The notes under the pieces are model-generated. The model did not search any database. It was not told where the DNA came from and saw nothing but the letters and a program-made list of their open reading frames with translations. Made by a program: the position numbers and the translations under genes. 26,799 nt of DNA, from NCBI GenBank assembly GCA_905178155.1, contig CAJINV010000018.1:1247562-1274360 (forward strand), read 5' to 3'. Shown in pieces: positions 7,160 to 26,596 of the stretch (position 1 is its first letter; the number at the start of each line of letters is the position of its first letter). This DNA comes from Amoebophrya sp. A120. Taxonomy: Eukaryota; Protista; Dinoflagellata.

Positions 7160-8500
7160 TTAAGCGCTGTCGTCATCTCCTGACTCAGAAAAGGCTGGGG
7201 CTTCCGCCTTTTGTGTAATTTTCTGAAATCGCGAAACGATTGGGCCATGCTCCCCCCCCCCCGAGGCTTGGGCCATCTTATCTTTTAGGGTGGCGATTGG
7301 CCTCCGTCGATCGAGAAGGAGCGCACGCCCCGCCGTGGCTCCCTTTCCATATCCTATCCCATGCGGGAACGGCATGCCTGGCCCGCATGGTGCGCAAACA
7401 CTTACAGCGCGAATTCGCACCAATCGCGTCTCTTATGCGGACGGCTTTGGGCACCTGCGCCGATGAATTGGGTGCGCAAAAGCATAGACGCTGCGCCCTA
7501 TCGTCGCGCTTCATCGGGGCCCGACGCCGGTTCTTCCCGCGCGAGCCGGCGCTGGTTATGCAGTGGCCCGATGGCGCAAAAGGGCCGCGGCGTTGCCGGC
7601 AAGTTCGCCAAGCGACCGCGGGCGGACTTTCGCAGGCGGGGCGGGTAGCCGCGTCGAAAGGTCGCCCGCGCGGGCGCTCCCCGAGGCTGTGCGCTGCTTC
7701 CGCGCCGGATCGTCTCGGGCGAGCGCGATCGGGGCGGGTCCCGGCCGGCGCGGCGGCCCGCGGCGGTTCCCCGCCCCGCGGTTAGAGTTTCCGGAACCCC
7801 GATGCGAGCAAGTCTTTAGCCCCCCGGCGATGCGCCCAGAGCGTGACGCCCGCGGGCGGCTGTGCCTTGCGCCCCCCGCCCCCTCAACAGCACCGCCGCG
7901 CGCGATTGCGCGGGGCGGAGGCAGCTCGTCGGACGGCGTCGCGTTTGCCTCCCCTGGTGCCGCGCCTCTAGGGCGCGGGCCGGCTCGTTTCTTTCCCGCG
8001 CCTTTGCCCGCCGCCGGGCCCGACGAGGCGGCAAGGCCCGGCTTGGCAAGGCACAATCTCGCGCGATGAACTCGGCTACGTCGCACGACAAGGCTACGAG
8101 AGCCGCAGTTTTTCGCGCCGGTGTTCGTTTGCTAGATCGGTCGCGGCCCCGGACGGCCACGCCACCCTTCCCTGCGCCGCGGCAGCCCGAGTTCCTGACT
8201 TGTTTGTTCGTGTTCCTGCTTTGGGCCCAGCTTTGGACAAGCAAACGATCCGGCAATCGAGGGAAAGCCATTTCGTACGTGGCCCACCTATTTTCCAGAT
8301 CCACCTAGAATCGTCAGGTCCAAGGCATCAATGCAGCAGCGCTCGGCCGGATGCGAAATCCTATGGCGCGTCGCTTGTTCATCCTTCCTAGCGGCAGGTT
8401 GCGCTGCGCTAGGGTGAGTGGATAAACGTATGCAGAAAAGTAGTTGACACTCCGCTCGGTGTAGCAAGCCAGCCCACGACCGGGCTGCTACAGTGCTGTT
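7160..8500 (-). pseudogene. Possible highly degenerate copia RT-connection/RNase H relic, very GC-rich
   Basis: Minus-strand peptides in different frames are collinear with copia motifs: KTAALVALSCDVAEFIA (cf. KQxxVALSTAEAEYIA), LAGNAAAL (cf. xxDNxAAI), LCFCAPNSSAQVPKAV (cf. NxADxLTK). Similarity judged by eye and weak. Confidence 0.35.
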
Positions 8501-8631
8501 ATTACCGAGGTTCTTTGCACGGGAGACGGTTCTACTGCGGCCGATAATCGTCGACAATTGCGAAGAGGAAAAAGAAGAGAAATTTGTCCACGTCGATCCC
8601 TCGCTTGTTTTATCACGGCACCCCAACTACG

Positions 8632-10896
8632 ATGACAAGTCCGACAACTTCCACCGCGGTGGAGTCCTCCTCCACCGCAACCGCAAAGGAGCGCCAAGGC
8701 GTGGTGTTTGACCGGTGGCCGTTTCGGCTGGACATCGCCTACGAGTACCAGTGCTGGATTCTCGTCGCGATGTCGGTGTTTTGCGCAACCATCTGCCTCC
8801 TTCCCTGCTTGTGCGGGGTGTTCCGGTCCAAAATTTCCAAGCGGTTCACGGTCTGGGTGTACTCCAGGCTGCACACCTTTTTCTGCGTCTATCAGAAGCA
8901 AAAATCCCCCCTCCCCACATCGAAACGAAATTTCTGATGCTGGATTTGCGTACACAAATCAGATTTGTCTTGCAGTAGAGGACTGCATGCCCATATCATG
9001 CCCATGCACAGAGGGACATCAGGAACGTCTAGGCCGTAGGAACAGCAGCATTACAAACCGCCTGCATAATGGGGCGGAGACTGTGGTGCTGCGTTCTTGC
9101 ATCACAGATGCGATTTGTGGTCACAAATCAGCACGAGAAATTTTTTGAGGCGTGCCTTATCGATATGGGGAGAGGGGATTTTTCCTTACGATAGCGTCGC
9201 CTTCTACTTCAACGTCACGGTGTTGTTCTTCACGGTGGGTCTGCTCCCAGATTGGACGATCAACGAGTACGTGGCGGTATGGGAGAGAAATTTTGCGTTT
9301 TCCTTGTCGCGCGTGGCACTTTTGCCGGTGATGCACTTTCGTACCCAAAGGAGCAGCTGTACTAGTGTGCACATCATTCTTTTTTCAACCGTCGCACAAA
9401 GTCTGACAGCAACCGGCTCCTCTACCGTCATGCAAAGCGTCGAGATCATTCCAGCGCGGCGTGTTGCATAACTTGCCTAAGTATTGTAACCCAAAGAGAA
9501 GGTTGCTGCAACGCGAAGGAAAAATTGGTTTTCATCCCAAGCTATACTCGATATGTTTCGACTTTCTGGATTGGATGTTGATCCACACCGTGAAGTTCCT
9601 GGTCTCTGCGCTGATCCTGCTGGGCCTGTTCATTCTCGTCAGGTCCAACTTCTTGAAGTTGAAAGTTTTCTTTGTGATGCGTAAGTGGTTTGCCAGAGTT
9701 CCTTGTCATGCGGAGCCCCAACAGTAAATGCGCGACAAATTATGCACCACCCAAAATCCTATCAGGTTCAAGGAGCGCATCGCCGCTGCCGCCGGTGTGG
9801 AGCACATGACCTTTTTCCGCCTCGGAAAACTGAACCTCTTCCACACCGCGCAGCTCCGCGGCATCGAGGTGATCATTTGGAAGGTGGAGGAGCTTCCCTC
9901 GGGCACGGGGCTGAAGCCCAACGACGTGTATTTGGAATGCCATGCCGGCCAGAACGAACCGACAAGGACGCGGGTGCACAACAACGCGGGAGCGTATCAA
10001 GAAGAAAAATCCCTCCTCCCCATATCAAAACGGAAATCTGTGTTGCAGATTTGCAGGCACAAATCAGCTTTGTTATGCTAGAAGGGGAAAGACCCGGACT
10101 GTAGTGCTGGGTGGCCTGGGGAAGCCTTGCATCTTCAGCATGGCAGGAAGCAATTGGAAGTGGGAAACAGCATGACAAATTGCCTGCAAACGAGGCCACA
10201 ACTGCGGCTCTTGGCCTCCTAGCATTACAAGTCGATTTGTGTACTCAGATACAGCATCACACATTTTGTTTTCGATATGGGGTGGGGGGATTTTTCCATT
10301 TGATAGAGCCGCGGCGGTGATCAAGGAAACGTTTCAGGTATACTGAAGATAACTACACTGCAACATATTGAAGATAACTATCACTATCCGTTTTATGCAT
10401 TGCAAATATGGATTTGTGATGCGAAATTTCAAGGACAACAAGTACAAGACTTGTATTGCATGAAGATGAGGATGATCATCCCCAGGTCAACATTGACGAG
10501 AACGACGTGGAGGAACGGTTCACACTTTTGGTAAAAGACCAAGAGCTATCCTGTGCAAAAGTATCGTACTCTTATTGCAGTCATGCGCTACAAATCTTTT
10601 TCTTAAGGCAAATCCGCATTACTTCTCATGCTGAGGAAATTTGTAATGCATTTATACGAGTACGATACTTTTGCAATGCATAAGAGCTCCTAGTTTCCTC
10701 CGTGCTGTGCAAGCTCCAGCTGAAAACCAAGGATGTTCTTGCGATTGAGGCGCAGACGGGCAAGGTGAGCGAAGATTTCGTCTACGACGCGAATGCGTTT
10801 TCGCAGCTCCAGCTGCAGCCGCGGGGAAAAATATGGCTGCGGGTAAACCCCTTGGAAGACGGGGAGCAACAGCCGTTGACGAGTGGACTGTGCTGA
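8632..10896 (+). CDS. Membrane protein (about 3 hydrophobic segments) with a C-terminal C2-like domain, ~320 aa
   Basis: Exons 8632-8889, 9199-9276, 9542-9642, 9766-9994, 10311-10337, 10486-10546, 10688-10896 (963 nt, one frame). 3 GT-AG introns and 3 introners. C2-like pattern: IEVIIWKVEELP..PNDVYLECHAGQNEPTRTRVHNNAG..VIKETFQVNI..FTLLVKDQELL..GKIWLRV. Confidence 0.75.
8890..9193. mobile_element. Introner 1 (family A)
   Basis: TIR TATCAGAAGCAAAAATCCCCCCTCCCCACATCGA / TCGATATGGGGAGAGGGGATTTTTCCTTACGATA. DR GCGTC at 8885-8889 and 9194-9198. Removal gives FFCVAFYF. Confidence 0.9.
9995..10305. mobile_element. Introner 2 (family A)
   Basis: Imperfect ~90-bp inverted repeat starting TATCAAGAAGAAAAATCCCTCCTCCCCATATC. 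DR GAGCG/GAGCC. Removal gives NNAGAAAVIKE. Confidence 0.9.
10547..10682. mobile_element. Introner 3 (family B)
   Basis: TATCCTGTGCAAAAGTATCGTACTC ... GAGTACGATACTTTTGCAATGCATA. DR AGAGC/AGAGC. Closely similar to 15651-15795. Confidence 0.92.
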
Positions 10897-11505
10897 TTCC
10901 ACGATTTCCGCTCACGACTGCTGAAATTTACCAAGACGGGTGAGGTGATTGTTAGCCCGCGAAGGTCGAAGACGATGCGTTAATGTGCAGCTGTTGAAGC
11001 AGGTGCCTAGAAATGCATCTTGGACGTTGTTGCTCGTGGCTCTTCTCTTCTTGGTTTTTGTCTTTATCGTCTTGTTCTTCACGACCCTCGTGCGGCTGCA
11101 AAGGTAGGCCGCCGACGGCGCTTACTAGGAAAAGCAACTGCAGGAATCAACTTCGACGGTTGGTTGTGACAGCACCCTTTCATTGCCAAGACTTGGCTTA
11201 TCCTAGAAGATCACCCAGAAAACGGACGAGATTAAGTTGTGCAAAATTTGTTTTCTCGATCTGCAATTTTTCTCATTTCCACACAGGTGTCTGGTTTGTT
11301 TCACAGCGACATTAGCTTTTAACACGTCGCATACGCGACGCGTGTCGTTGCTATATTCACTTGTAGTCGCGATTTCAGTTTCAACATTCGGCACGTCATT
11401 TTTCAGATCTGTCTGAACAATTTAGAATCTTCTTGCTGGTTCTTTTTTACTCATACTTGGTAAAATTTTCATTAATTTTGTGGACGTTACAAGTAGACTG
11501 ACATC

Positions 11506-14500
11506 ATGTCGCGTCATTTGCTCTTTGAAACAACGTCAACCGCTCTGGAGCGGTCGCGACCCTCGCTTCCGCGGCTGAGAATAGGCGGGAAAAACACCAG
11601 TGCCGGGGCACTACCGTCTGTCTCCCCTGCAAACAAGCCGCAGAAAGCGGGTCTACCGGCGCCCCTGCTGACCGGCTCTTACACCTTCGGTGGCAGCAGC
11701 AGCTCAACTGCACCTACTTGGGGAAGGCGAGGATTCTCAAGTCATTCTGTTGGGAAAGGGTCCTGCGTTGCAGCGGAGACGCCAAATTTCTTTTCTCCCC
11801 AAACCATGAAGCCGCGACCAAATACCGGGCTGTCTCATCTGCCACAAAGCAACCATGCGTGGCGAGGGCGGGCCGAGTGGGAGGAGCCAGCAAGTAGACA
11901 CAGAGCTTACAGCACCAAGAGCACAGCATCGCAAGGTTTGTTCGACAGGAGGCAAGGGCTGCTGCGGGGAGCGGCGAATTTTTGTGGTCCGAGAAGTAGA
12001 CTGGGAGCAGGACGAGGACTCTTCACGAAAAACAGCTTCTCCTCATCCCCAATACGAAATACATTAAGCTCCCACCAGCAGCACCACCCGCCCCACAACA
12101 ACCTTCTGCTGCCTCGAGTCCGCACCATGATCATGATCCGCGAGACAGAGAACGGAGAGAGCAAGGATCCAAAAAAGAAACAGAAAACCTCCACCATCCG
12201 CACGCTAAAGTCCGTGCTCAAGTACGCGTGGCCGTCGGGCGACCCGAAACTGCAGTCCCGCCTGGTCGGCAGCATGGCGTGCTTGGTGCTCGGGAAAGCC
12301 GCAACCATTCTGGCGCCGCTGGCACTCGGAGACTTGGTGAACAGCCTAACCGTATGCATTGCAAATATGTTTGGGTCTGGAAGGTTGGAACTTGTAATGC
12401 TATCTTTCCATACCTAGGAAATCTGTATTGCATAACCAACATAAGCCGCGGCCTCTTTTGTACATGCAAAAACGCAGTTTCTCATGCGGATTGCCTATGA
12501 GAAAGCGTTCTGGAAAGTTGTCATGCTGGGTTGCATTGGAAACTGTTTCTATCATCCACATTTTTGCATCAGAAGTTTCCAGACCCAGACATTTTTGCAC
12601 TTGATAGACCGCCGTGCGAGCGAGTCCGGGCGCGTCGGACGCAGCCGCCGAGCAGCTCGCGGAGACCTTCTCCCGGACGGCGTCCACCCCGGGTCTGGGC
12701 GATTTGCTCACCGCCACCACGGACAGCACCAACGTGCTCCTCGCCACCCCGGAGATGGTCCCGTTGCTCTGGCTGGCGTCGTACGGGCTCGCGCGGTTGG
12801 GGGCCAGCGGGTTCTCCGAGCTCCGGACCTACCTGTTCGCGCGGGTGGTGCAGAAAGGGTGCCGCAAGCAGGCGCTGAACGTCTTCAACCACCTGCACAC
12901 CCTCGATGTCGAGTACCTCCAGGCGCTGAAGTCCGGCGAGATCCAAGCCATCATGAATCGCGCGCTGAAGTCCATGCAGCAGGTTCTCACGACGCTGTTG
13001 TGGAACGTGGCGCCAACTTTACTGGAATTCGCTTTTGTGCTCGCGATCGTGTACAATCAGATGGGGTTGTACTCGAGCGGCATTGTGTTTGCGACCTTCT
13101 GCAGTTACTTCGGTTTCACGACGGTATCAAATGCAAAAATGTCTGGGTCTCCTCTGGAAGAATGCAAGTTTGTCATGCTTGTCTGGCATGACTCGAGAAT
13201 CTGTGTTGCATAGGCACGAAAGAGACCTCTTAACTGTCACGCGAAAAGGCAGCTTGCCATGCGGAATACGTAAGACATGGCAGCCACAAAATTTGTCATG
13301 TATAACTGCGTACTGCGGCGCGTCTATCATTCACTTTTAGCATTACAAGTTTCCAGACCCAGACATCTTTGCATTTCATAGACGGCCTACAGCAACAAGC
13401 GGCGGGAGTACATGAAAGAATCGAATAAACGCGACGACCGGCTCGCGGGGCAGCTGGTGGACTCGGTCCTGAATTGCGAAGCGGTGCGGCACTTTTCCGC
13501 GGCGAAGCGGGAGGCCAGGCGGTACGACCGACAGTTAGCGAAATACGAGGAGAGCCAGGTACTAGGGGAGTCAGTGCACGATCCTGTGAAAATGTCTTTA
13601 CTTGATCAATCTTCATGCATAACTCGCCACAGGAGTGTGGTTATCGTCATGCTGTTTATAATCTTGAGTTTCGAATACCAATCCAACCTCTACTTGATGT
13701 GGTACTGCAGTCCCCCCGGCATGGTGAGAAGTTCCAATTTAATCACTGTCAGGTGCAAGTCCTGCAATCCCTCGCCACTTTGAATATCAAATGCAAAAAT
13801 GTCTGGATCTGGAAACATGGAACTTGTAATGCTAGCCCTACATTCCTGTAAGATCTGTATTGCATGACCAACAAAGAAAACGCCCTGTTTTGTCACGCGC
13901 ATGGCAAAGTGTTCGGCAAACTTGTCATGCTTGGCTGCCTTGGGAAGTGTTTCAGTCGTGCACAGTTCAGCATCACAAGTTTCCAGACCCAGACATTTTT
14001 ACAGTTGATATGGAACTTTGGGCAGCAACTGGTGATCAACACCGGCCTCCTTTCCATCATGGCACTGGCCACCTTCATATGCATTGCAAATATCCCTGGA
14101 TGTCCGGAAAATATGGAATTTGTGATGCTAACTTTCGAGGATACAAAAACCTGTATTGCTTTATGAGCAGCAGAAGCTATGCAGACCTTTGCCAACCGGA
14201 CAGGGCTGCATTTCTCATGCCGGATAGGCATGAGCAAGCCTTCGCGAAGACGAAACCTGTGATGCTAGAGCATGCATCAGTGGCATCGCAGGTCTTGTAA
14301 AATCTGCATGACAGACTCCCCGAATTATCTTCCAGACGTCCAGGCAGATAATTTTCAGTTGATACTTCAACGTGCTCAACGGTTCCGTCCCCGTCGGGGA
14401 CGTCGTTGCGGTGAACACGCTGATGCTGCAGCTCGCGCAACCGTTAAACTTCCTCGGCGGCGCGTACCGAATTACTCTGCAGGGGGTGTTGGACTTGCAG

Positions 14501-15867
14501 CGGCTGGAGCAGTTTTTGACCGACCAAAAAGGGTCCTTGCCCGAGGGGGAAAAAGATTTTCAGTACGCTGGCGGGAAAATCGAATTTGAGAACATCGATT
14601 TCCGTGCGCTGAGGGATTTCAACTTGAAGATTCCCGCGGGAGCAAAAGTTGGGATCGTCGGGCCGTCCGGGAGCGGGAAATCCACCATTCTGAAGTTGTT
14701 GGCGCGGACCGCGAAGCCGGAGAAGGGCCGCACGTTGGTGGACGATCAAGATCTGATGGACGTCACGCAGGACAGTTACGCCAGCGAGATCGGCATCGTT
14801 CCCCAGGAGTCGATTCTGTTCAACGACACGCTGCGGTTCAACTTGGAGTACGCGGCGTTGGCGGACAGTAAAGCAGCGCTAGATGATGATGATGTTGACA
14901 CATCGACAAGTACGGACGTAAAACTCGCTCTCACCGACGAGGAAGCGGAGCAGCAAAGGGTCAAACTCCAGCAGCAAATGGAGAACGCCTGCAAGCTCGC
15001 GCAGGTCCACGACGTCATCGAGAAGTTTCCGGACCAGTACGAAACGGTCGTCGGCGAACGGGGGTCGAGGCTGTCCGGCGGGGAGCGCCAGCGGATCAGC
15101 ATTGCGCGCACGTTGCTCCGCGATCCAAAAATTTTGCTGTTCGACGAGGCCACGGCGTCTTTAGATTTGGAAACGGAGGACAAGCTGACGCGGGCGATCC
15201 ACGATTTGATCTCGAACAGCAGCAACAAAACCATGCTGATCGTCGCGCATCGGCTATCCACGGTGAAGCAGTGCGATTTTCTGCTTTACATCGACGGCGG
15301 GAAGGTCGCGGAAATGGGCAGTATCCTAATTAAAAACGTCCCCACACCAGAGTCACGATGGGAAATCTGCTAGACAAATCAGCCAGCTTTGGTTGTCTGG
15401 CATGACAAGTTTGCCCTCGTAGTGTAATGCTGTTTAGCTAGTTCACAAGCATTACAGACCTAGCATAGCATGCAGCTTATAGCATCACAAATTCCAAAAC
15501 ACGAATAGAAAATGCTTCTCATAGGGCTCCGCATGAGAAGCTTTTTTGGCATGCAGAATTGCATTACAGCTCTGGGGTGGGGAAGTTTTTACTCAGAATA
15601 GGCAGCCACGAGGAATTACTGAAAAAGGAAAACGGGTTGTATCGGAAGCTTATCCTGTGCAAAAGTATCGTACTCGTATTGCAATCATGCATTACAAATC
15701 CTGTTCTTAAGGCAAATTAGCATTACAAATTCAACTTCTCATGCGGAGGAAATTTGTAATGCATTTATACGAGTACGATGCTTTTGCAATTCATAAAGCT
15801 GTGGGCGACCTACCAGAGAGGGGTGGGGATAGGGAATAACAACAACGCCGGGAACAAGAAGAGTTGA
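11506..15867 (+). CDS. ATM1: Mitochondrial ABC half-transporter, ATM1/ABCB7 family, ~896 aa
   Basis: Exons 11506-12352, 12612-13124, 13386-13558, 13753-13784, 14016-14077, 14370-15321, 15606-15650, 15801-15867 (2691 nt). TMD motifs DSVLNCEAV, SLATLNFGQ, QPLNFLG; Walker A GPSGSGKST; signature LSGGERQR; Walker B LLFDEATASLD; AHRLST. Long Ser/Arg-rich N-terminal extension consistent with a targeting peptide. Confidence 0.9.
12353..12606. mobile_element. Introner 4 (family C)
   Basis: TATGCATTGCAAATATGTTTGGGTCTGGAA ... TTCCAGACCCAGACATTTTTGCACTTGATA. DR AACCG/GACCG. Confidence 0.9.
13125..13380. mobile_element. Introner 5 (family C)
   Basis: TATCAAATGCAAAAATGTCTGGGTCT ... AGACCCAGACATCTTTGCATTTCATA. 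DR GACGG/GACGG. Confidence 0.92.
13785..14010. mobile_element. Introner 6 (family C)
   Basis: TATCAAATGCAAAAATGTCTGGATCTGGAAAC ... GTTTCCAGACCCAGACATTTTTACAGTTGATA. DR TTGAA/TGGAA. Removal restores conserved SLATLNFGQ. Confidence 0.9.
14078..14364. mobile_element. Introner 7 (family C variant)
   Basis: TATGCATTGCAAATATCCCTGGATGTCCGGAA ... TTCCAGACGTCCAGGCAGATAATTTTCAGTTGATA. DR CTTCA/CTTCA. Confidence 0.88.
15322..15600. mobile_element. Introner 8 (family D)
   Basis: TATCCTAATTAAAAACGTCCCCACACCAGAG ... CTCTGGGGTGGGGAAGTTTTTACTCAGAATA. DR GGCAG/GGCAG. Removal gives EMGSHEELL. Confidence 0.92.
15651..15795. mobile_element. Introner 9 (family B)
   Basis: TATCCTGTGCAAAAGTATCGTACTCGTAT ... ATACGAGTACGATGCTTTTGCAATTCATA. 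DR AAGCT/AAGCT. Removal gives GLYRKLW. Confidence 0.92.
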
Positions 15868-16654
15868 TTGCAATCTGCTTTCTTATATGCAAAAGATTTT
15901 TCCATGCAGAGATGCGCAGAAACTTTTACTTTTGTGTTGCACCCGAAGAAACAAAGATGAAGCAAGAAACATACACAATCAAAAAACTCGTGTTGGCCCA
16001 ACATCCCGCTGCGCCACAACGCTTCTATTTCCGCAGCTGTAGCCCAGTACATGGAGCAACGGCGTGACATGAAACAGTGTTCTTGAATGCTAGCCGCACC
16101 TGCAACTACCTGAAAGAACAACGGCCACCTTGCCATGAAGCAAAAGTGATATCCAGTGTAAAAAATCGAGCACGCCAAAATAAGGATAAACGTGAGAACA
16201 ATTTTCCAAACGCAGATGCAAAAAATTATTTTACAAACACTTCGCCGCCAGAACACAGAGAGAAGACAGATAACATCTCTTCGTGTTATATCATCTTCAG
16301 TTGTAGTTCTCCTGGTTCTCTGACAGCGACGTTTCCTGATATGTAGTAATTACGATGACTTCTAAAACACGATGTTGTGAATATGAAGATAGCGACGTGC
16401 TAGACCCAGTGCAGCTACTATAGTAGATTTATTTCAAGACGGAAACGGGGTGTATTCTTGTTTTCGTTTATTCCTCCAAATATCTTCGTGCTCTGCCTAG
16501 ATCTAGACGAGAACAGCAGTCGAACTGTGTTTACTTACTAGAAGACGAGTGAGAACAACATCTTCAAGAAGCGTTGAATAGATTAAGAGCGACTTCTGAA
16601 CCACAGCGTCTTCACTTCTGTAAAGTCACTTCTTTATCAGTCTTGGGTAAGTAT

Positions 16655-19600
16655 ATGGGCAACATTTTTTCCTCTTCCCCAGTAAAAACCGAAAGCGACA
16701 CAACAACACCCAGTACTAAAGCGACGAGCACGAGTAACAAGCGAAGAGCCTCTCTTAGTACTAGCGAAGAGAGCCCATCTAGCAAGAAAACCAACATGCC
16801 GTCCGCAAAAAACTCGGTAAAGAAGCCCGCCGGGAAGCAGCTCACGGCCGCTGAGCTTGGCGAAAAGTATGTGGGGACGGGGAAGCCGGGAGGTATAGTT
16901 TAGTTGTTCATTGCGGGCGCCGGACGGCAAGAATCTTGAAGCGGTTTGATGTGTAAAAAATGCGTTTCTATAGTCGTGGCGGGGATTTAGAAGTTTAAGT
17001 TGTAAGATTAAGATTCCAAAATCAAAAAATACCACAAGGTGCCAAGGATCCCAACCCAGCGAGATGGGAAGACCACAAGCAGCATCCCTTCTCATCCGGG
17101 CTGTGCATAGCAACGTTACTGGACGGGAGCAAGTGCCAGAAGACCTGGGCGGAAGCGTACGTCCCCTACTGCAAGCCGTGCATGGAGAAGGGCGACCCGT
17201 CGGCAAAGGTAATAACGCACGAGCGGTTTGGCAAGTGCCTCGTCGCGCAAAGGGATCTGCTATCAAATGCAAATGTGTCTGTGTGGTCTGGAAATAGAGC
17301 GATATTCATATTTGTCATCTCGCGGTTTATTTCGCATGACCAGTAGGGTCTGGTACTTAATAGTATGCACGCCTACGAGCATGACAGGTTCTGCGAGGGC
17401 TGCTTCCCAATGCCTTGAGCTCGCCTTCTTTCCGCGCGAGCAAAAGCGGCTAGCTTGTGCTGTTCATGGAAGACAGATCTCACCGTCTTCCTGAGCTAGC
17501 ATGACGAATTTGCCGCTCTTTTCCAGACCCAGACAAATTTTGCACTGCATATCTGCCGAAGGGGTACAAAATGGCCTTGTTCGGAAAGGTTTACGAAGAG
17601 GAAAACATGCCGGAGGCGGACAAAGAGTGGGGCTTCGAGTGCTCGGACGGCACGTAAAATTTCTATTACGCCACGGCATTTTCCTACTTTTTTCTGCTTG
17701 ATGTTTCTTTGTCATGCAGCAGCGCTATATATAGAAGGACGCGGTAGTACCATCATCAGTACGCGGAAGTTTTTTTGTCACACTGCTCGTCATCTTCACG
17801 GCTGTAAGAACAAGAAAAAACTCGAAAAATAAAACCTCTCAGGTTCATCAACCCGGTGAAGTACAGCGGCAGCCTCCCCCAGTTCTGCCAGTGCCCCGGC
17901 CCCAACGAAAAAGTCACCGTCACCTTTGCTCAGCCGCACTTGCTAATGGAGGCAGTGTATCGATTGCAAAGCAATAGCGTTAGATTCGTACTCGGACATA
18001 ATTGCAAAAATGGTGCGTGACAGGTGTAATAGTATGTAGCTGTGGGCGATGCAGCTCGTCAGCACGAGAAATTTGAATTTCATTTATCAGCATTCATTCT
18101 GGATGAGAAATTTGTGTCGTTATGCGAAAGCGAATAGTACGATATTTTTGCAATGCATACCTTGGAGAGGCACGAAGACCGCGAGTATCCCTACGCGTCA
18201 ATGGTACTAATGGTGGTGCTCACTTGATGTTTCAAGAGTTGCATCATGTGTACACAAGAAAGACAAAATAGAGGTATACAGTTGTCATTCGTAGCAATCA
18301 TGTTCGTGGTCCATATCAAGATTTCCAATCCGAATTTACATCGAAACAGCTCTATCAAATGCAAATATGTCTGGGTCTGGAAACTTGTGTTGTTGATAGA
18401 TGCTTGCATTGCAAACTTGCTGCGTGTAGGTGTACGGCATAACAGCATCAGAAATTTCCTTCGGAGCCATTCGCGTTTAGCATTACAAACTGCCATCCAG
18501 CACGACAAAAAAACCGGCCAATGGTATTCATTCATTACAGATCTTGTTGTCCTTGAAGTCCTGCGTCACAAATCCAGACCCAGACATGCTTGCAATGCAT
18601 AAGCTCTTCCAAACGACGATGCCTGTGCCGAAGAATCACCAGCTGGTGATGATGTACGCGGAAATATCCTGTGTAAAAGCATACCACCCGACGCCATTAT
18701 TTGTCATGCAAATCGGCATGCCCAGCATTGAGTCGAATGTGAATGTGTCTGCTCATGCGCAGCCCCATGAGGAGCATATTATAATAATTCTACCTGGCAA
18801 GAACGGATTGCTTTTACTCAGGATAGGAAAACGAAAAAGCTACCGAGGTCTTCTTTTCCGAGCGCGGAATCAGCAGGTGTGACGTCTGGCAGAAGTATGG
18901 ATTGCAAATATCGACTTGGGTCGTTGCGGAGAATGCGAAAAAAACTTGTGATGCTCTCTGTAGAAGCTCACGTTCTTTTGCATGAGTAGAAGCAGTGCCG
19001 TCCCAGGAGTTTCTGCGACGCAGTGATGGGTGTGTTTTGTAATGCAAGATAGTAAGCATTGCAAATTCTTGCCAGAATCTGTGCTACAAGTAGTCCACGA
19101 CCACGCATTTTGTGCAGACCTTTCGGGGCATGGAAAACCTGCATCACAAGTATCTGCATTCTTTGAGAGGACCCAGACTGCGTATTTGCAATGCATAACA
19201 AGAATGCCCCGACGATATTGAAGAAGTGCGCGCCCGCGGACCCGAAGAATTTGAAGCTGACGGGCAAGCCCATCAGCAAGGCGGAGAAGGACAAGAAGGT
19301 GAAGGCGTGTATGGAAGCGTCAGGTTTGAAATCGACAAAGTTGAAATGATTTGTCATGCATAAAATGGATACCAGTTGGAAGCCCAATTTTCAAGCGGCA
19401 CATGACAAATTTTCGGAGCACCGAAAGCCAATTTGTCATGCTGTTTGGGCATAAAAGGCGTCTTTTGTCATGCTACTTTAGCAGCTCTATCACAGACCCC
19501 AAACAGGCTGACAATCTGCCTCGCTTGCCATCCCTGCAAGAGAGACAATTCACGCCTTGCATTTCATGCATGACAAATCCTTTCAACTTTGACGATTTCA

Positions 19601-19827
19601 ATCCTGACAGATCCATAGCGTGGGAGCTCCACGAAAAGCAGAAGATGAAGTCGGCAGCCGAAAAGGAGAACATGACGAAGCAGAAACTGAAAATGAGCAG
19701 CAACGCCACCGCGATGAGTAAGATGAAGGAGGTGAAGAAGAAGAACGGCAAGGACAAGTCCGGCAAGAGTACGGGTAGCATGAAGTCCACGGCGACCAGC
19801 TCGAAGGCTGCGATGAAGAAAAAGTAG
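16655..19827 (+). CDS. Divergent SET-domain-like protein with upstream Cys4 motif and Lys-rich tail, ~382 aa
   Basis: Exons 16655-16892, 17039-17260, 17557-17653, 17843-17957, 18165-18203, 18604-18664, 18831-18895, 19203-19309, 19623-19827 (1149 nt). SET-like segments: FGKCLVAQRDLPKGYKMALFG, FINPVKYSGSLPQFCQCPGPN, LFQTTMPVPKNHQLVMMY. The start codon and the 17957/18165 junction are uncertain. Confidence 0.7.
17261..17551. mobile_element. Introner 10 (family C)
   Basis: TATCAAATGCAAATGTGTCTGTGTGGTCTGGAAA ... TTTCCAGACCCAGACAAATTTTGCACTGCATA. DR TCTGC/TCTGC. Confidence 0.9.
17958..18159. mobile_element. Introner 11 (degenerate, family B-like)
   Basis: TATCGATTGCAAA ... AGTACGATATTTTTGCAATGCATA. 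DR eroded (CAGTG/CCTTG). Confidence 0.7.
18353..18601. mobile_element. Introner 12 (family C), inserted at an intron acceptor site
   Basis: TATCAAATGCAAATATGTCTGGGTCTGGA ... TCCAGACCCAGACATGCTTGCAATGCATA. DR AGCTC/AGCTC. Confidence 0.9.
18665..18825. mobile_element. Introner 13 (short, family D-like)
   Basis: TATCCTGTGTAAAAGCA ... TGCTTTTACTCAGGATA. DR GGAAA/GGAAA. Confidence 0.88.
18896..19197. mobile_element. Introner 14 (family C variant)
   Basis: TATGGATTGCAAATATCGACTTGGGTC ... GACCCAGACTGCGTATTTGCAATGCATA. DR AGAAG/ACAAG. Confidence 0.85.
19310..19617. mobile_element. Introner 15 (family E)
   Basis: ~58-bp imperfect TIR TATGGAAGCGTCAGGTTTGAAATCGACAAAGTTGAAATGATTTGTCATGCAT... DR GCGTG/GCGTG. 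Confidence 0.92.
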
Positions 19828-21128
19828 GATGAGAATCGATGCGATTAGATATCCAGGTGCAGGAGGAGATACAAGTACAGTCACCTGCTCGACGTCTCGT
19901 CCTCGTCAGGATGATCCGTTTACTTCACCAGTACACGTCTTTTTACCCTGCTGTTGTTTCATCGAATGTTGACACAAAGTCTGTTCTTTCGATGGCAACT
20001 ATGCTTTAAAGGTGTTTTTTACGACGCAACAATTGGGGAAGAAAAAACTTTGTTCTTGACTGCGCGCCGGGGAAGAAATGAATAAGTAGAATGCAGCACT
20101 ACAATTATTACCTTTACTGTGGATGAAACACTCTACGATCCAGGGTTGTTGTTCTCAAGGTACTGTAATACAAAAACACGACCTCCGTTTGGAAGATAAA
20201 CGAGAGGTGTCACAGCTTCCACTGGAACCTTTGTGATAATTTCGATTCCACCTACGATTGTAGAACTTCTACCCTCTGCTCGAAGATGGCACAGGGATGT
20301 CTAGATTTTTTTGGTTTTTACTTACGACCCCCTGGGAGTTGATTTCAATCTTTTATCTTTTGCAGCTACACGCTAAAAGAAAACCAAAACTTTGCTTTTG
20401 ACGCTGTGTTTTTTTTTTGCATGAAAAGCGACAACTACAAGGTAAGTACAATACTAATGAAAAGAATCGGAGTTTTCCTCTACCATCACTTGGACGCGTT
20501 TCAATCTGACACCGCGAGCGGGTTTGGATGAGTAAAAAATAGTGTTCGACTGTGTGTTGTGATGTCCTGCTTTTATCGCCACTTTTTTTTGATGGATAGC
20601 GCCTCGGATGTTTTTTATTTGATGGTTTTCACTCGTCACGACCTGGAGCGTACTTATATGGCTTGAACTGAAGATCGATAAAAATGTGTTTTTCTTTTTT
20701 GTGAAAGAGACGGGCTTTTTTTTTGTTTCGCGAGGATCATCCCTTTGTCGCATCCGCTCGTAGTTGTTGGTTTTCTTCTTTTTTCCTTGCTTTTAGTTTT
20801 TTCCACTATTCTGTTTTCGCTGCAGGAAGAGTTAAGTGGTTTTGCGACCAGGTCGTGGTCCCTTGACCACGTGACGTGTAAAAATAGCTTTCAAAACGAC
20901 GTATCAGTCGCACCTCGATCGCTGCTCTTGCTGCGTTTGCGCAAATGGTATTGATTCTTTGACACAGCTCATGCCGACTTTTCCTTCGCAAAAAATGTTA
21001 ATCTCCAATATCCCTAGCCTTGTAGAGGGCCCACGATGTAGTTCCGTGGAATTCTAGTTTGCTTTGAATCCTCGTAAGAAGCAAGAAGTTTTTACAGCGT
21101 GGGTTCCTGCTTCCTATAGCTCGATACC

Positions 21129-23161
21129 ATGTCCGCGAACCAGGGCGCGCGGTCGCGGCTCGGCGCGTCTCTCCGGGCCATGACCGGCGGGGGTCAGAAG
21201 GCCGCGTCGAGTTCAGCCGCGGGGAGTAGTGATCATGCCGCGAAGGAGGTCGAGATTGTGAAATTGGTGCCACCGCAGCGACTGGAAGATCTCTACCAGT
21301 ACGATGTAAAATTGTACGACGCAGGTATAAAAATGATGATATTTTGGTGTGACAGTGACTCAGGTCATCATCCTTGTCATGATGCAGTGGAGGAACCAAC
21401 TACAAGCATGACAAGCATTCTCTCTCAATGCCCTCCCGCATGACAAATTCCTTAGGTGACCGCAGCAAAGTTTTCGCGGCCAAAGAGCGGGCGACGGGCA
21501 AGGACGTGATCGTGAAAATCAGGAAGATATGCACGGCAAATATCTCTGGGTCTGGAAAGATTCACCTGATTTGTGTTGCTGAGTTTTGCATGAAAGAGCG
21601 ATGTTCTGCACGGTATAAACGCATCACAAATTTTCCGTCCGGTATTGCGAGCTCCACCGCGGTGTGCATGACAAACTGAGATTCACTGCATGACAAGAAG
21701 TTGGCCAATCGCATTGATGTATTACAGATCTCGTTGGGTTTTCAATTTTGCATCACAAATTCAGACCCAGACAGGTTTGTAATGCATAAAAGAAAGGTTT
21801 CTTTTCCGGCGGGGAACGGGTCTGGCGGTCGGTGCTGACGAGGATGATGAACATATGCAGTGCAAAAGTATCGTACTCGTATCAATACATCACAAATTTT
21901 ATTCTCAGCATGAAAAATAAAATTTGTAATGCTGATCTACCTCAAGAAAAAGATTTGTAATGCATGACTGCAATCAGTACGAGTGCGATGCTTTTGCACA
22001 GCATAGAACATTGAGGAGAACGAAAATGTTCTAGGGATTGACACCATTCTAGAGGACGACAAAGGTATTGTCATTAACATTAAGTCTTGAAAATGATATA
22101 ATACGAGTCTTTTCACATGCACTTTCGCGAAGCTTGCTTGCATGTCTTTGTCCGACCGATGCCGATGCTATTGGAACAAGTCGAGTGCTAGTATACTTGC
22201 ATCAAAGAAGGAGTGTCAGTTTTATGTTTATCATGCACACAACGCACTAAAATGATTATTCCCAGCCTACTACGTGATCATGCAGAAGTGCGGCGGCGGC
22301 GAGCTTTTCGACTTCCTCTTAAACGAGACAGACGTCCCGGAGCGGGAGTGTAAACGGATCATGCGGGAAATCCTGAAAGCGGTGGACCACCTGCACAGCA
22401 AGGGGTTGATCCACCGCGATATCAAACCGGAAAACGTTTTGTTTGAGAAGGCAAAGGAGGAGCAACAGTCCCCGGAAGAGCAGCGGAAGTTGAAATTGAT
22501 CGATTTTGACACCTGTGCATTGCAAAAGTATCGTATTCTAGGATGAATTGCATCACAAATTTTCTGAAGAAGAAATATGCAACTTGTCATGCTACTTCGG
22601 GTAGAAAGTCGAATTTGTCATGCAATTGCCCTACGAGTGCGATACTTTTGCAGTGGATAACCACTGCCAGGACTGGACACCGAAATCGCCGAAGGCGCAA
22701 AGAATCGTCGGGACACCGGGGTACATCGCGCCGGAGAGCTTTCGCGGGGACTACACGCCAAGTAGCGATCTGTGGTCCGTGGGCGTGATTCTGTACATTC
22801 TGATGACAGGGGACATGCCGTTTCCGGAAGACGTATCTTAGACGATTCTGTTGTGTGTTTTGTGATTGTGACGCATGATTGTCCACTCGTGCTGTGGTCC
22901 TGTTCGATGCAAATTTTCACTGCTTAAAAATAATGAACACAGGTGTTCGGCGACGATATTGCGGGCAACAATCAGGTCGGCGGCGCAAAAATGGAGCAGA
23001 TCTACAAGCGGCTGAAAACTTTCCAGATTGACTTCGACTGCCCGCCGTGGCCGGATTTCCCGCAGGCCCGGGACCTGTGCTCCCAGTTGCTGGCGTTTGA
23101 CCCGGGTGACCGGAGCCCGAGTGCCGCGGACGCACTGCAGCATCCGTGGCTGAAGGAATGA
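21129..23161 (+). CDS. Ser/Thr protein kinase, CAMK/CDPK-like catalytic domain, ~338 aa
   Basis: Exons 21129-21324, 21456-21527, 21794-21853, 22011-22064, 22266-22513, 22665-22832, 22943-23161 (1017 nt). Motifs [47 protein letters not shown]. Confidence 0.92.
21528..21788. mobile_element. Introner 16 (family C)
   Basis: TATGCACGGCAAATATCTCTGGGTCTG ... CAGACCCAGACAGGTTTGTAATGCATA. DR GAAGA/AAAGA. Confidence 0.88.
21854..22005. mobile_element. Introner 17 (family B, inverted relative to introners 3 and 9)
   Basis: TATGCAGTGCAAAAGTATCGTACTCGTA ... TACGAGTGCGATGCTTTTGCACAGCATA. DR GAACA/GAACA. Confidence 0.92.
22514..22659. mobile_element. Introner 18 (family B, degenerate ends)
   Basis: TGTGCATTGCAAAAGTATCGTATTC ... 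GAGTGCGATACTTTTGCAGTGGATA. Flanks ACACC/ACCAC. Removing 22514-22664 gives [14 protein letters not shown]. Confidence 0.8.
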
Positions 23162-24678
23162 TAACGAATGTTGTACGTCGTAAATATCAAGATTATGATC
23201 TGTTTCACCAGTGATAAAGCAGTAAGTAGTAGAGTGTAAATGTAAAATTCGAAGACAAGAACGATTTCAAGCATAGTATCTCGATGGACGAAAAAGACAA
23301 CGAGTACAACTGTTCCATGTTGTGCTATCACGAAGAAGAATGAAACTTAGGAATGTGCAAGATTAGGAAACAAAAATGATCTTGTTTGAGGAATAGCTTT
23401 GCTACCTCAAAGTGTAAAAAGAGAAAGTGAACACGTATTGTTATCATGGAGAAAGCAAACGCGCCGCGTCCAGCACCGACGGCCGTAGCGCTGCGGCGCT
23501 TACCAGATGCGATTGCGAGACCTGCAATCTGCTGTTCTTCCAACATTTTTCTTTCACCGAAAGCGGCTGAGTGGGGCAGAAGAAATCGAGGCGCGAGCAA
23601 GATCCTGCCGCGAAAAAGTAAAAGCTGCGCGCTGCGGGGCGAGGGTGCACTCGTGACACCCTCTTTATGGCTAGCGCGCGGAGTGCCTGAGGTTCTGGCG
23701 TAATTGAGTGTCAGCACGACCACGTGGCGATGCAAGCTGCCGCTAGAGCGACGGAGGGAAAACTGTAACTGTTACTGTGTGAGGGAGGGGCATCTCCTGA
23801 CATTTCATGCACAGCATCATGTCGATCCTCTAATGAACTTAGTGCTCTAGAAAAAACTACAAATAATGGCACACAAGCTTTAATTCAATATTCGACCGAG
23901 TTCTTCTTTGCTAAAACACATCAAAGACAGAAAATATAGTCCGTGTTGCGGAGGTCTCTCGCTGTTCTTGAAGCTGCAGCTGTTTCTGTCTTCTGCCGAC
24001 CCTGGGAGAGGAAGCTGCTAGCTTTTCCACCGACCAGCCTCTGTGCCTTTTTTTTTTGCAGCGAAGCTTGTACCCGGCGGTAGATCAGGAAGTTGAACTG
24101 AGACGGCTTGCTTTCGCGGAAACAGCAAGCAAATCACCGGAGTCCATCCAGATCTACGAGATACACAGGTGGCTTTCTCCCGAAGATTTTCTGTGTGGCC
24201 CTGCAGAAAAATTTTCAGGCCGGTTCGCGGTCAATAATTCGAGGCAAGCTTCGAACATTCCGGGTTTGGTTCTCTTTGCCACGTTGACCCACGAGGTGGA
24301 GAATAAAGAACGTGACCGCGCCCAGCTCGTACCATCCTAACAACTGGCGACGGTGGTGGTCATTATCATCTTCGCGTCTCGACGTGGACGACATTGTCAG
24401 CAGTGCGGGGAGGTGGGAAGAAAACCAGAGAACAACGGGAGAAAAACAGCCACAGCGGCTCCTCTTGCAAGACCGAATTATTTTTCGCTGGATCAACATT
24501 GTCATTGACGAGTGCTGACGTGGCGTAGGTAGCCCCGCGGCCGTACGGTGCAGAGCTGTAACCCACTCTGGTACAACTGTGCATGTGGATGTTCTTGTAA
24601 CACCACCAGGACCACCAGCTCTTCAACGCAAGATAGAAGGTATAAACCGCGAGCTGGTTCTTGTGCACGACGAACACC

Positions 24679-26596
24679 ATGGACGATTTGGGCGCAGAGC
24701 AGCACAGCGACAAGCCGTATGACGAGGCAATCGAGGTGTCCGGCGACGACGCCAGCACGCCAACGTCATCGCCACGACAAAAACCACTCTACGATGTGCC
24801 GTCGCACGCATCACCCAGTCCGAAGGGGAAGCCGGAGGTAAAAAAGAGGGATGCTGCGTACTTGACAACCTGGATTTTGGATCGACTTCTATGCGGTGCA
24901 GCAGCATGTGTGAATTAAGGCATGGCAGGAATGTTTGAACTTAACAAAAAAAAATACTTTTTATCCCCTCACAGCCCCTCGAAACCGCCGTCAAGGCGTC
25001 ATCCCCGGGAACGAAATCAACACCGAAATCGAGCCCTGGGAAGTCAAGTCCCGGGAAGTCAGCAAGTCCGAAACCGGCAAAGAGTCCCGGGAAGGTATGT
25101 ATTGGGACGTTTGCATGACAAGTTTTTTGTGTGAAAATTTTTGTTTCTCATGCTGATTTGCCCACTGCGATTGCTTTTGTCATGCCATTCTGGATAATGA
25201 AACAGGAATCTTCTTCTTCCGATGCCACTAGTACGAGTTCTAGCGATGACGACGAAGGAATGATTATCCTGAGTAAAAACGTACCCACACCATAGTTGTC
25301 ATGCAAATCTGCATGCTGAGAATGTTTCTCATGCGGAGCCCCATGAGAAGCATTTTCTAGTCGTGTTTTGCAATTTGTCATGCTCCAATCAGCATGATAT
25401 GCTAGATCTGTGATGCTGCTGAGCTAGCTCAAACAGCACTACACTACGAATCCAAATTTGTCATGCAAAACAGCCAAAACTTGTGGATTTGTCTAGCCGA
25501 TTCCCCATCTTGACTATGGTGTGGGTACGTTTTTACTCAGGATAATGATAGCCGGGCAGTATAACCCCGCAGACTACGCAAATTTGAAGGTAAGGATTAC
25601 GATTAACTCCATCTTTGTCAGTACGCATGACATGTTTTTGTTTCTCATGCAGCACTCCTTACTCGTTCTCACCTCAGAGAAGATGAAAAAAGAACAACAA
25701 AAACAGGTCTCCCCCGAAGTCTCCGAGCTGTTTCAGTACATCACGAGGTATAAGCCCCACGCCATAGAATTAGATACGAAACTGAAAGCCTTCATACCCG
25801 ACTTCATACCGGCGATAGGCGAAGTGGACGCGATGATAAAAATTCCGCGCCCCGACAACAAGCCGGACGGGCTCGGGCTCACGCGGGTGGACGAGCCGTG
25901 CTTGAACCCCGCGGACCCGGCGGTTTTGGAGCTGCAACTGCGGTCCATATCGAAACACCAGAACCTAACCCCGATAGAAGTCCGGAGTGTCCGAACCGAC
26001 GCCGAGATAAAACAGTGGGTGAACAGAATAGGAGACCTGCACCGGATATGCATTACAAATATGTCTGGCTCTGGAAGATTGCCAGATTTGTCATGCTTGT
26101 CTGACATGACTCGGACCTCTGTCATGCGTAGGTGCAAAAAGATCGTTTTGTCTGTCAGGCAAAAGCGCAGTCTGCGATGCGGACTACGCTACACATAGCA
26201 CCTCAAAAACTTGTCATGCTTGGCCACGTATGACAGAGCGCCCAGTATTCCCTGGTTTGCATCACAAGTGTCCAGACCCAGACATATTTGCATTTGATAT
26301 CGGAGCAAGCCGGCGACGGCGGTAGTAACTTCGTCACAACATGAAGGAAGATGCATCAGGCGATAGATCTGAGGGTTTTTCGTTTCTGAATTTTTGTGAT
26401 GCGCAAAACAGGATACTCATACTTTACCTTCTCATAACATCAACCACAGGTGCAATACAGCAAGAAGATGCCGGATATAGAGACGCTGATGCAGGTGTGG
26501 CCTGCAGAAATGGAAAGTTATCTGGAGCAGAACTTACCATCATTGCAACTGGCAGCGTTGGACCACAAATCGCTGAGCTTGAAGGACTACATCAAG
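24679..26596 (+). CDS. IFT46: Intraflagellar transport protein 46 (3' end lies beyond the window)
   Basis: Exons 24679-24837, 24975-25094, 25206-25264, 25550-25589, 25707-26046, 26305-26321, 26450-26596. Recognisable IFT46 core: YNPADYANLKVSPEVSELFQYITRYKP..LKAFIPDFIPAIGEVDAMIKIPRPD..LGLTRVDEP..MPDIETLMQVWP. Confidence 0.92.
25265..25544. mobile_element. Introner 19 (family D, inverted relative to introner 8)
   Basis: Perfect 32-bp TIR TATCCTGAGTAAAAACGTACCCACACCATAGT. DR ATGAT/ATGAT. Confidence 0.95.
26047..26299. mobile_element. Introner 20 (family C)
   Basis: TATGCATTACAAATATGTCTGGCTCTGGA ... TCCAGACCCAGACATATTTGCATTTGATA. DR CCGGA/TCGGA. Removal gives DLHRSKPATA. Confidence 0.92.

What the first reader, a model, noticed from the sequence alone, without database searches (positions are those of the whole stretch)
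10547..25544. Introners work in either orientation
Seen: insert 19 (25265-25544) is a full-length reverse-complement homologue of insert 8 (15322-15600). Insert 17 (21854-22005) is the reverse complement of inserts 3 and 9. All host genes are on +. Known: spliceosomal donor, branch and acceptor signals are strand-specific. Inference: removal depends on symmetric features (terminal stem, TAT/ATA ends, DR) rather than linear signals, as expected for a DNA-transposon origin and hairpin-guided or DNA-level excision.
Basis: partly seen in the sequence, partly recalled or inferred. Interest (0 to 1): 0.75.

Follow-up and report, generated by a model that had tools for sequence, protein, structure and literature searches.

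The report
Reversible transposon introns of Amoebophrya
Small jumping-DNA inserts in the genes of an algal parasite sit in either direction about equally often and are missing exactly from the messenger RNA either way, so the cutting signals likely lie in their mirror-image ends; the inserts are known, the cutting machinery is not.

Summary
Confirmed and extended. Insert 19 is the reverse complement of insert 8 (233/280 identical); insert 17 is the reverse complement of inserts 9 and 3 (123/152, 120/152), also inside the TIRs. These are the published Amoebrophrya A120-type introners (TAT...ATA ends, 5-bp duplication). RNA contigs of one sample lack exactly element plus one duplication for reversed inserts 17 and 19 (4 of 4 runs). 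Removal of inserts 3, 8 and 9 is shown indirectly, and a DNA run keeps the inserts. In another assembly, 17 of 17 families occur in both predicted orientations, the largest 75:82, with no GT/AG enrichment at target sites. DNA-level excision is unsupported. 'Symmetric rather than linear signals' is a false choice: the TIR puts N-TA, matching canonical GTA donors, at the 5' end either way. Either-orientation introners are known in Aureococcus and Polarella; I found no statement of it for Amoebophrya. Best reading: a hairpin-guided, relaxed spliceosome (about 0.5); rival: endonuclease plus RtcB. Earlier unchecked scan notes report similar hairpin introns in other dinoflagellates, without orientation data.

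The parts
15322..15600 (.). Insert 8, 279 bp, family 4; duplication GGCAG; in the ABC transporter gene
   Evidence: an X3 contig leaves the genome at 15316
25265..25544 (.). Insert 19, 280 bp, family 4, opposite orientation to insert 8; duplication ATGAT; in IFT46
   Evidence: joint skipping 285 nt in 4 of 4 RNA runs
10547..10682 (.). Insert 3, 136 bp, family 0; duplication AGAGC
   Evidence: an X3 contig piece starts at 10682
15651..15795 (.). Insert 9, 145 bp, family 0, same orientation as insert 3; duplication AAGCT
21854..22005 (.). Insert 17, 152 bp, family 0, opposite orientation to inserts 3 and 9; duplication GAACA; in the kinase gene
   Evidence: joint skipping 157 nt in 4 of 4 runs
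22514..22659 (.). Insert 18, 146 bp, diverged family 0, probably oriented like 17; starts TGT; its duplication copies differ at positions 3-4 and fix the cut at or after position 4
   Evidence: joint skipping 151 nt in 4 of 4 runs
21528..21788 (.). Insert 16, 261 bp; duplication copies differ at position 1; RNA keeps the left copy
   Evidence: joint skipping 266 nt
26047..26299 (.). Insert 20, 253 bp, family 2; duplication copies differ at position 1; RNA keeps the left copy
   Evidence: joint skipping 258 nt
8890..9193 (.). Insert 1, family 5
   Evidence: X3 piece ends at 8884
9995..10305 (.). Insert 2, family 15
12353..12606 (.). Insert 4
   Evidence: ORF restored on removal; no RNA joint seen
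13125..13380 (.). Insert 5, family 2
   Evidence: no RNA joint seen
13785..14010 (.). Insert 6
   Evidence: no RNA joint seen
14078..14364 (.). Insert 7
   Evidence: X3 piece starts at 14365
17261..17551 (.). Insert 10
   Evidence: spliced length 2161 equals the RNA contig
17958..18159 (.). Insert 11
   Evidence: same length check
18353..18601 (.). Insert 12; its left duplication overlaps the AG of a canonical intron
18665..18825 (.). Insert 13
18896..19197 (.). Insert 14
19310..19617 (.). Insert 15, family 7
   Evidence: X3 piece starts at 19618
8500..11257 (+). Host gene 1 (unnamed; span of the RNA contig within the stretch laid); carries inserts 1-3
   Evidence: no Pfam hit for the one exon tested
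11506..15867 (+). Host gene 2, half ABC transporter (ATM1-like by eye); carries inserts 4-9
16655..19827 (+). Host gene 3, about 380 aa, unnamed; carries inserts 10-15
   Evidence: no Pfam hit for the one exon tested
21129..23161 (+). Host gene 4, protein kinase; carries inserts 16-18
24679..26596 (+). Host gene 5, IFT46 (continues past this point); carries inserts 19-20
   Evidence: spliced model identical over 294/294 aa to P0001

Best explanation
The inserts are Amoebophrya A120-type introners, short TIR-bounded elements with 5-bp target duplications that stay in the DNA and are missing exactly, with one duplication copy, from RNA contigs in both orientations, and they are likely removed by a modified spliceosome that reads the TIR hairpin instead of GT-AG. 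Shown: anatomy, reverse-complement pairs, exact removal of both orientations in this window, retention in a DNA run, and no canonical sites at the targets. Predicted: a near 50:50 orientation ratio in other loci (host strand called from coding potential) and pairing of the two TIRs in either strand. Inferred: (1) a cut-and-paste transposase making a 5-nt staggered cut inserts them without regard to gene strand; (2) in the pre-mRNA the stem brings both ends together; (3) the 5' cut falls after duplication base 4, so every intron starts N-U-A-U, the canonical GUA donor with a free first base, supplied by whichever TIR is upstream; (4) the 3' cut is measured 4 nt beyond the downstream TIR rather than found at an AG, which removes element plus 5 nt and restores the gene. 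Orientation independence with RNA-level removal: about 0.93. Spliceosomal chemistry: about 0.5.
For: Joints of element plus 5 nt for 5 of 5 inserts in 21400-26520, in 4 of 4 runs, in the same contigs that skip GT-AG introns. RNA allows a common cut only after duplication base 4 or 5 (insert 18: 4 or later; inserts 16 and 20: 5 or earlier). In the base-4 register, +2 is T and +3 is A, as in 13 of 14 canonical donors of the window. All 18 predominant non-canonical sites in Farhat Table S4 have T at +2, in both strains, although the TIRs start TAT in A120 and TTA in A25. All but six of 89 spliceosomal proteins and U2, U4, U6 (U5 in A120) are reported present. In that register 135 of 286 insertions are phase 0, like 8 of 12 canonical introns in the window (hand count). 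Precedent for a spliceosome adapted to TIR-derived non-canonical sites: Fritillaria. Inner TIR pairs are predicted in 242 of 252 elements, in both orientations.
Against: No 3' AG (25 of 306) and no G enrichment at +1 (69 of 306); only 18 of 306 could be GT/GC-AG in any register. First and last intron bases show no compatibility pattern (GG 21 observed vs 27.2 expected). The 5' and 3' TIRs are indistinguishable in host orientation, so TAT conservation may just reflect the transposase. U1 was not found. The base-5 register is not excluded, and a single shared register is an assumption. The published +2 T may be an aligner preference within the repeat. No branch point was identified. Duplication mismatches are more often synonymous than a fixed cut predicts (40 of 66 vs 25-29). 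RNA evidence is contigs from one sample.
Confidence: 0.5

Rival explanations
1. Spliceosome-independent removal: the TIR duplex is recognised as structure, cut by an endonuclease at fixed offsets and ligated by RtcB or a similar ligase. This would be a precise counterpart of animal SOS splicing or of euglenid nonconventional splicing.
For: No dependence on target sequence, no AG, no terminal-pair pattern, no orientation bias, no asymmetry between the two TIRs. Stems are predicted in both strands. SOS splicing is triggered by ITR pairing and needs RTCB. U1 is missing.
Against: SOS splicing is imprecise and leaves indels, whereas 5 of 5 joints here are exact. TIR positions 4-7 are complementary in only 34-60% of 450 elements, and the outer TAT/ATA pair is predicted in 170 of 252, so the stem base is a poor ruler. 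The +2 T register in two strains with different TIRs would be a coincidence. RtcB, AKAP17A and CAAP1 could not be looked up in this genome.
Confidence: 0.32
2. Copy-choice skipping: RNA polymerase (in vivo) or reverse transcriptase (in the library) jumps across the hairpin between the two 5-nt repeats, so the junction can fall anywhere in the repeat.
For: It explains exact removal of element plus one repeat, orientation independence and lack of sequence preference. It fits the excess of synonymous mismatches between repeat copies (40 of 66, p 0.0002-0.005 against a fixed cut).
Against: Insert 18 is removed exactly with only 3 of 5 repeat bases matching, and the RNA keeps left bases 1-4 in all four runs. 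At positions 2-4 the left copy has the likelier codon in 15 of 16 non-synonymous mismatches. A pure library artefact cannot explain genes that carry in-frame stops if the insert is kept (259 of 286; 5 of 5), or zero RNA depth inside insert 16.
Confidence: 0.1
3. Programmed DNA-level excision, as for ciliate IESs, in some life stage.
For: Exact excision leaving one repeat copy resembles IES removal (recalled). Only one DNA run was laid, its stage is unknown, it may be the source of the window, and contigs drop rare variants.
Against: X1 contigs at 41-50x run unbroken through six whole inserts and across boundaries of 8, 17 and 19. Every insert-free contig seen also lacks GT-AG introns. Spores arise from the intracellular stage, so excision there would erase the elements in one cycle unless a separate template exists (inference from the life cycle).
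Confidence: 0.05

Closest known systems
Amoebophrya A120 introner elements (Farhat et al. 2021, PMC7789003)
   Same: TAT start followed by seven variable bases and a run of A, 3-5 nt direct repeats, non-canonical borders, hairpin, about 240 nt, RNA-supported removal. The window's IFT46 model is identical to a protein named Amoebophrya sp. A120.
   Different: Nothing in kind. Element orientation is not addressed in the main text or supplement text I could search ('strand' 0 hits; 'orientation' only for genes). Its figures were not visible.
Either-orientation introners of Polarella glacialis (bioRxiv 10.1101/2020.10.14.339549) and Aureococcus (Huff 2016, seen only second-hand)
   Same: DNA-transposon-derived introns made in both orientations, with no change in mRNA.
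   Different: They use GT/GC/GA-AG sites, recruit bases from the duplication and show orientation bias. Here no base is detectably recruited and 16 of 17 families show no significant bias.
SOS splicing (Zhao et al. 2025, PMC12779559)
   Same: DNA transposons cut from mRNA, keyed on terminal inverted repeats, without GU-AG.
   Different: Imprecise, with indels and variable sites, and shown only in animals. Removal here is exact; the factors were not testable.
Fritillaria borealis non-canonical introns (PMC13326754)
   Same: MITE-derived introns whose splice sites come from the TIR; U12 system absent.
   Different: U1 is retained and U2AF duplicated, with preferred AG-AC/AG-AT ends. In Amoebophrya U1 was not found and the 3' end has no preferred bases.
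Euglenid nonconventional introns (PMC12501133, PMC11282704)
   Same: Terminal inverted repeats join the ends, borders are non-canonical, and duplication-like repeats flank them.
   Different: Different end motifs (CAG/CTG), circular products reported, unrelated lineage.

Membership tests
Amoebophrya A120 introner elements | Terminal inverted repeat starting TAT, seven variable bases, then three or more A | tested here: met
   19 of 20 window inserts start TAT (insert 18 TGT); A at TIR positions 11-13 in 87-94% of 306 elements; 613 of 642 ends found without requiring TAT have it
Amoebophrya A120 introner elements | 3-5 nt direct repeat at the borders | tested here: met
   5-nt repeat, 5/5 in 12, 4/5 in 6, 3/5 in 2 of 20
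Amoebophrya A120 introner elements | Repeated, in families | tested here: met
   369 of 450 elements fall in 17 families of four or more; summed depth on inserts reaches about 1e5 vs about 45 on unique DNA
Amoebophrya A120 introner elements | Removed from transcripts at non-GT-AG borders | tested here: met
   5 of 5 joints; the RNA label of runs X3-X6 is a guess by the tool, backed by GT-AG joints, poly(A) and empty intergenic bins
Amoebophrya A120 introner elements | Host is Amoebophrya | tested here: met
   exon 100% identical to P0001 (named A120) and 88% to P0002 (named A25); 294/294 aa
Non-autonomous TIR DNA transposon (MITE) | TIRs, fixed-length duplication, no ORF, many copies | tested here: met
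Non-autonomous TIR DNA transposon (MITE) | Cognate autonomous element or transposase | tested here: inconclusive
   4 long TIR-bounded candidates in 632 kb plus the window; the 3 checked are chance pairings of separate short elements; whole genome not held
U2 spliceosomal intron | GT/GC donor and AG acceptor | tested here: not met
   18 of 306 in any register
U2 spliceosomal intron | +2 U and +3 purine at the donor | tested here: inconclusive
   met only if the cut is after duplication base 4; RNA allows 4 or 5
U2 spliceosomal intron | Branch point and lariat; dependence on U2/U6 | not testable with these tools
   no consistent branch motif found; no lariat data
SOS splicing substrate | Paired terminal inverted repeats in mRNA | tested here: met
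   predicted only: inner TIR pairs above 0.5 in 242 of 252
SOS splicing substrate | Imprecise excision with indels | tested here: not met
   5 of 5 dominant joints exact; contigs hide minor forms
SOS splicing substrate | Needs RTCB, AKAP17A, CAAP1 | not testable with these tools
   no genome held
Ciliate-type IES (DNA excision) | Absent from a somatic DNA version | tested here: not met
   retained in DNA run X1; other stages not examined

The most novel reading that the evidence does not exclude
Amoebophrya runs a dedicated, fully precise RNA excision system that recognises only the paired ends of a transposon, in either orientation and at any target sequence, and cuts and ligates without the spliceosome. 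That would make exonic transposon insertion nearly free of cost and explain tens of thousands of new introns. The unexplained codon-phase bias and the synonymous excess in the duplications would be its footprints.
Probability: 0.3. Interest if true: 0.9.

Novelty: already known. Interest (0 to 1): 0.5.

Why it matters
How Amoebophrya removes about 60-65% of its introns without GT-AG or a detectable U1 is an open question in the paper that described them. The results here narrow it: removal is exact, works in both orientations, and needs no particular target sequence, so all the information lies in the first 20 or so bases of the TIR and its distance to the cut. That gives natural test pairs (8/19, 9/17) and natural register markers (elements with mismatched duplications, about a quarter of those detected) that separate a relaxed spliceosome from an endonuclease-ligase pathway. 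The elements themselves, and either-orientation introners in general, are already in print.

Tried and rejected
No match in viral contigs. No listed holder is on record as RNA. Raw RNA runs X9 and X10 touched only 6 and 3 of 30 bins, on TIR-like stretches, and are uninformative. In one search the joint table was swamped by repeat joints of the DNA run (15 shown, 1419 hidden), so rare excised DNA is not excluded by it. Proto-splice sites (G at duplication base 5, AG at 3-4): not enriched. An A excess and G deficit at base 5 (1.34 and 0.70 in 286 elements) did not replicate in the other 144; rejected. Terminal-pair compatibility: none. 5'/3' asymmetry in TAT decay: 302 of 316 vs 311 of 326 exact; first-base changes 4 vs 8, too few. 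The GCATNASA motif as a branch point: absent in sense orientation from 64 of 450 elements, including 3, 17 and 19; rejected. Insert 13 as a reversed short relative of insert 8: a local hint was not upheld by global alignment. Autonomous partner: not found. A 470-nt match of inserts 8+9 to other loci reflects close neighbours with unrelated spacers, not paralogy. Huff 2016 is not held.
Full report
Observation. The window holds 20 inserts of 136-311 bp with TAT...ATA ends (insert 18 starts TGT) and a 5-nt repeat directly outside them. Insert 19 aligns to insert 8 as a reverse complement over its whole length (233/280; interior 174/210, score 272 against -8 forward and a best shuffle of -14). Insert 17 does the same to inserts 9 and 3 (123/152, 120/152; interior scores 81 and 65 against 2 and -5, best shuffle 0). 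All five host genes read on +. Removing each element plus 5 nt, and the GT-AG introns, gives open frames of 898, 383, 341 and 303 codons for genes 2-5. Pfam names an ABC transporter, a kinase and IFT46 (5 of 7 exons hit). Kept in place, each of inserts 3, 8, 9, 17 and 19 brings an in-frame stop.

Identity. One IFT46 exon is 100% identical to a protein named Amoebophrya sp. A120 and 88% to one named A25. The spliced model equals the former over 294/294 residues, and the A25 protein is colinear across the sites of inserts 19 and 20. The anatomy is that of the A120 introner elements of Farhat et al. 2021, PMC7789003 (abstract, sections 10-12 and 16, passages, supplement part 2 and rows of Tables S4, S5 and S7 read; figures not visible).

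Are both orientations removed? Four RNA-like runs of one sample, laid on 21400-26520, show joints of 266, 157, 151, 285 and 258 nt: element plus 5 for inserts 16-20, 5 of 5, in 4 of 4 runs. The same contigs skip six GT-AG introns (five in X6). That covers the reversed copies 17 and 19 directly. For the forward copies the evidence is indirect (run X3). A contig piece begins at 10682 and another ends at 15316, the leftmost positions of exact removal of inserts 3 and 8. For insert 9, the remaining 239 nt of that contig end at 15989 if it is removed, which reproduces the bin depth (17.6 + 3.1 = 20.7 observed, against 18.0 if retained). The spliced model of gene 3 is 2161 nt, exactly the contig length without its poly(A). 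Limits: contigs from one sample give the dominant form, not efficiency, and their RNA label is a guess supported by intron loss, poly(A) and empty intergenic bins.

DNA. Run X1 has flat depth of 43-58 in bins without inserts, and contigs at 41-50x that cross inserts 7, 10, 11, 13, 14 and 16 whole and one boundary each of 8, 17 and 19. It may be the source of the window, its stage is unknown and its joint table was truncated, so rare or stage-specific excision is not excluded. Nothing supports it.

How general? A pattern scan returned 134 loci of another assembly (687 kb, 632 kb after removing contained duplicates). They hold 556 elements, against 6 in shuffled sequence. Of these, 541 had enough flank and 430 received a host-strand call from a codon model. 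Confident calls agree within loci in 272 of 286 cases and with an ORF-only method in 200 of 206. With the 20 window inserts, 369 of 450 fall in 17 families, with no conflicting orientation edge. All 17 have both orientations: 75:82 for the family of 3/9/17, 7:8 for that of 8/19, and one family at 12:3 (p 0.035 uncorrected). With ORF-only strands the largest family is 27:33, and 13 of 17 families still show both, the other four having 2-5 members called. Without any strand call, same-family neighbours within 3 kb are 47 alike and 43 opposed. Opposite-orientation pairs reach 95% identity. These loci have no RNA evidence and were selected by a family 0 motif.

What carries the signal? Not the target site. 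In 306 elements G at duplication base 5 (69) and AG at bases 3-4 (25) are not enriched, and 18 could be GT/GC-AG in any register. The two TIRs look alike in host orientation. Inner TIR pairs are predicted in 242 of 252 elements and the outer TAT/ATA pair in 170, while TIR positions 4-7 are complementary in only 34-60%. Mismatched duplications fix the cut: insert 18 keeps left bases 1-4, and inserts 16 and 20 allow at most base 5. At positions 2-4 the left copy gives the likelier codon in 15 of 16 non-synonymous mismatches. If one register serves all elements, it is after base 4 or 5. After base 4 the intron begins N-T-A-T, and 13 of 14 canonical donors in the window begin GTA. All 18 predominant non-canonical sites listed for A25 and A120 have T at +2, and A25 TIRs start TTA plus two purines, again GTA-like; aligner bias may contribute. 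So a linear donor-like signal exists and is symmetric because it sits in the TIR. The hard part is the 3' cut, which has no AG and must be placed by distance from the TIR.

Mechanism. I favour a relaxed, U1-less spliceosome guided by the hairpin (0.5) over an endonuclease-ligase route like SOS splicing (0.32), copy-choice skipping (0.1) and DNA excision (0.05). Against my reading: no terminal-pair pattern, no branch motif, no asymmetry between the ends, and 40 of 66 duplication mismatches are synonymous where 25-29 are expected if one copy were free. That excess may mean a wobbling junction or gene conversion from empty alleles. A codon-phase bias (135:74:77; 138:77:78 with the duplication masked; only 107:85:77, p 0.07, with ORF-only frames) is not explained by recruited bases.

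Comparison with print. Either-orientation introners with canonical sites and orientation bias are reported for Polarella and Aureococcus (passages of bioRxiv 10.1101/2020.10.14.339549; passage of PMC10228655; Huff 2016 itself not held). SOS splicing is ITR-triggered but imprecise (PMC12779559: abstract, passages, Discussion). Fritillaria adapted U2AF and snRNA methylation (PMC13326754: abstract and section 30; preprint passage). Euglenid introns use terminal repeats (passages). Other papers seen as passages only: PMC12130899 (supplement 2 of 118 rows, two files not searched), PMC9860276, PMC12005148, PMC8469720. Eight library searches gave no statement on the orientation of Amoebophrya introners. 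Subscription papers, the figures of Farhat et al. and the unread supplements of PMC12130899 and the Polarella preprint could hold one. The scan has no notes on this genome. Unchecked notes on other dinoflagellates describe similar hairpin introns.

Verdict. The elements are known. The unbiased, target-independent, exact removal is a useful and apparently unreported constraint on an open mechanism. Interest 0.5.

Noticed in passing
L001-L134 and window: Spacers between neighbouring elements peak at 40-80 nt (131 of 457), with only 4 under 30 nt. This suggests a minimum exon size plus insertion next to existing elements, perhaps into chromatin linkers.
   Followed up: partly
L001-L134; window inserts: Codon-phase bias of insertion sites without recruited splice bases: duplication bases 2-4 form a whole codon in 135 of 286 and in 9 of 19 window inserts (hand count); weaker with ORF-only frames.
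   Followed up: partly
L001-L134: Mismatches between the two duplication copies are synonymous in 40 of 66 cases, 22 of 29 at bases 4-5; 25-29 of 66 are expected if one copy were unconstrained.
   Followed up: partly
window inserts and canonical introns: The motif GCATNASA occurs on either strand 64 times in 4.8 kb of elements, 11 times in 2.0 kb of canonical introns, 0 in 6.9 kb of exons and 3 in 7.1 kb of intergenic DNA. It may be a transposase site, and some canonical introns may be decayed introners.
   Followed up: partly
window 10394-10442: A TIR fragment related to insert 12 lies inside the canonical intron 10338-10485.
   Followed up: no
window 9274-9592: An intron of about 310-313 nt in gene 1 seems to lack both an AG end and TIRs; its borders could not be fixed from the contig length alone.
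   Followed up: partly
window 18204-18606: Insert 12 sits on the acceptor of a canonical intron: its duplication includes the AG, so two routes give the same mRNA.
   Followed up: no
window 239-5374: An intact 1711-codon ORF without introners with copia-like reverse transcriptase and RNase H motifs by eye. Copia integrases also make 5-bp duplications (recalled), and PMC12130899 describes an A120 introner with copia homology and TIRs. Not tested as the mobiliser.
   Followed up: no
window 7500-8200: A very GC-rich stretch (76% in 7501-8000) upstream of gene 1; unexplained.
   Followed up: no
window 13559-13752: A canonical intron of the ABC gene with a degenerate internal inverted repeat near both ends, unlike the TAT family.
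   Followed up: no
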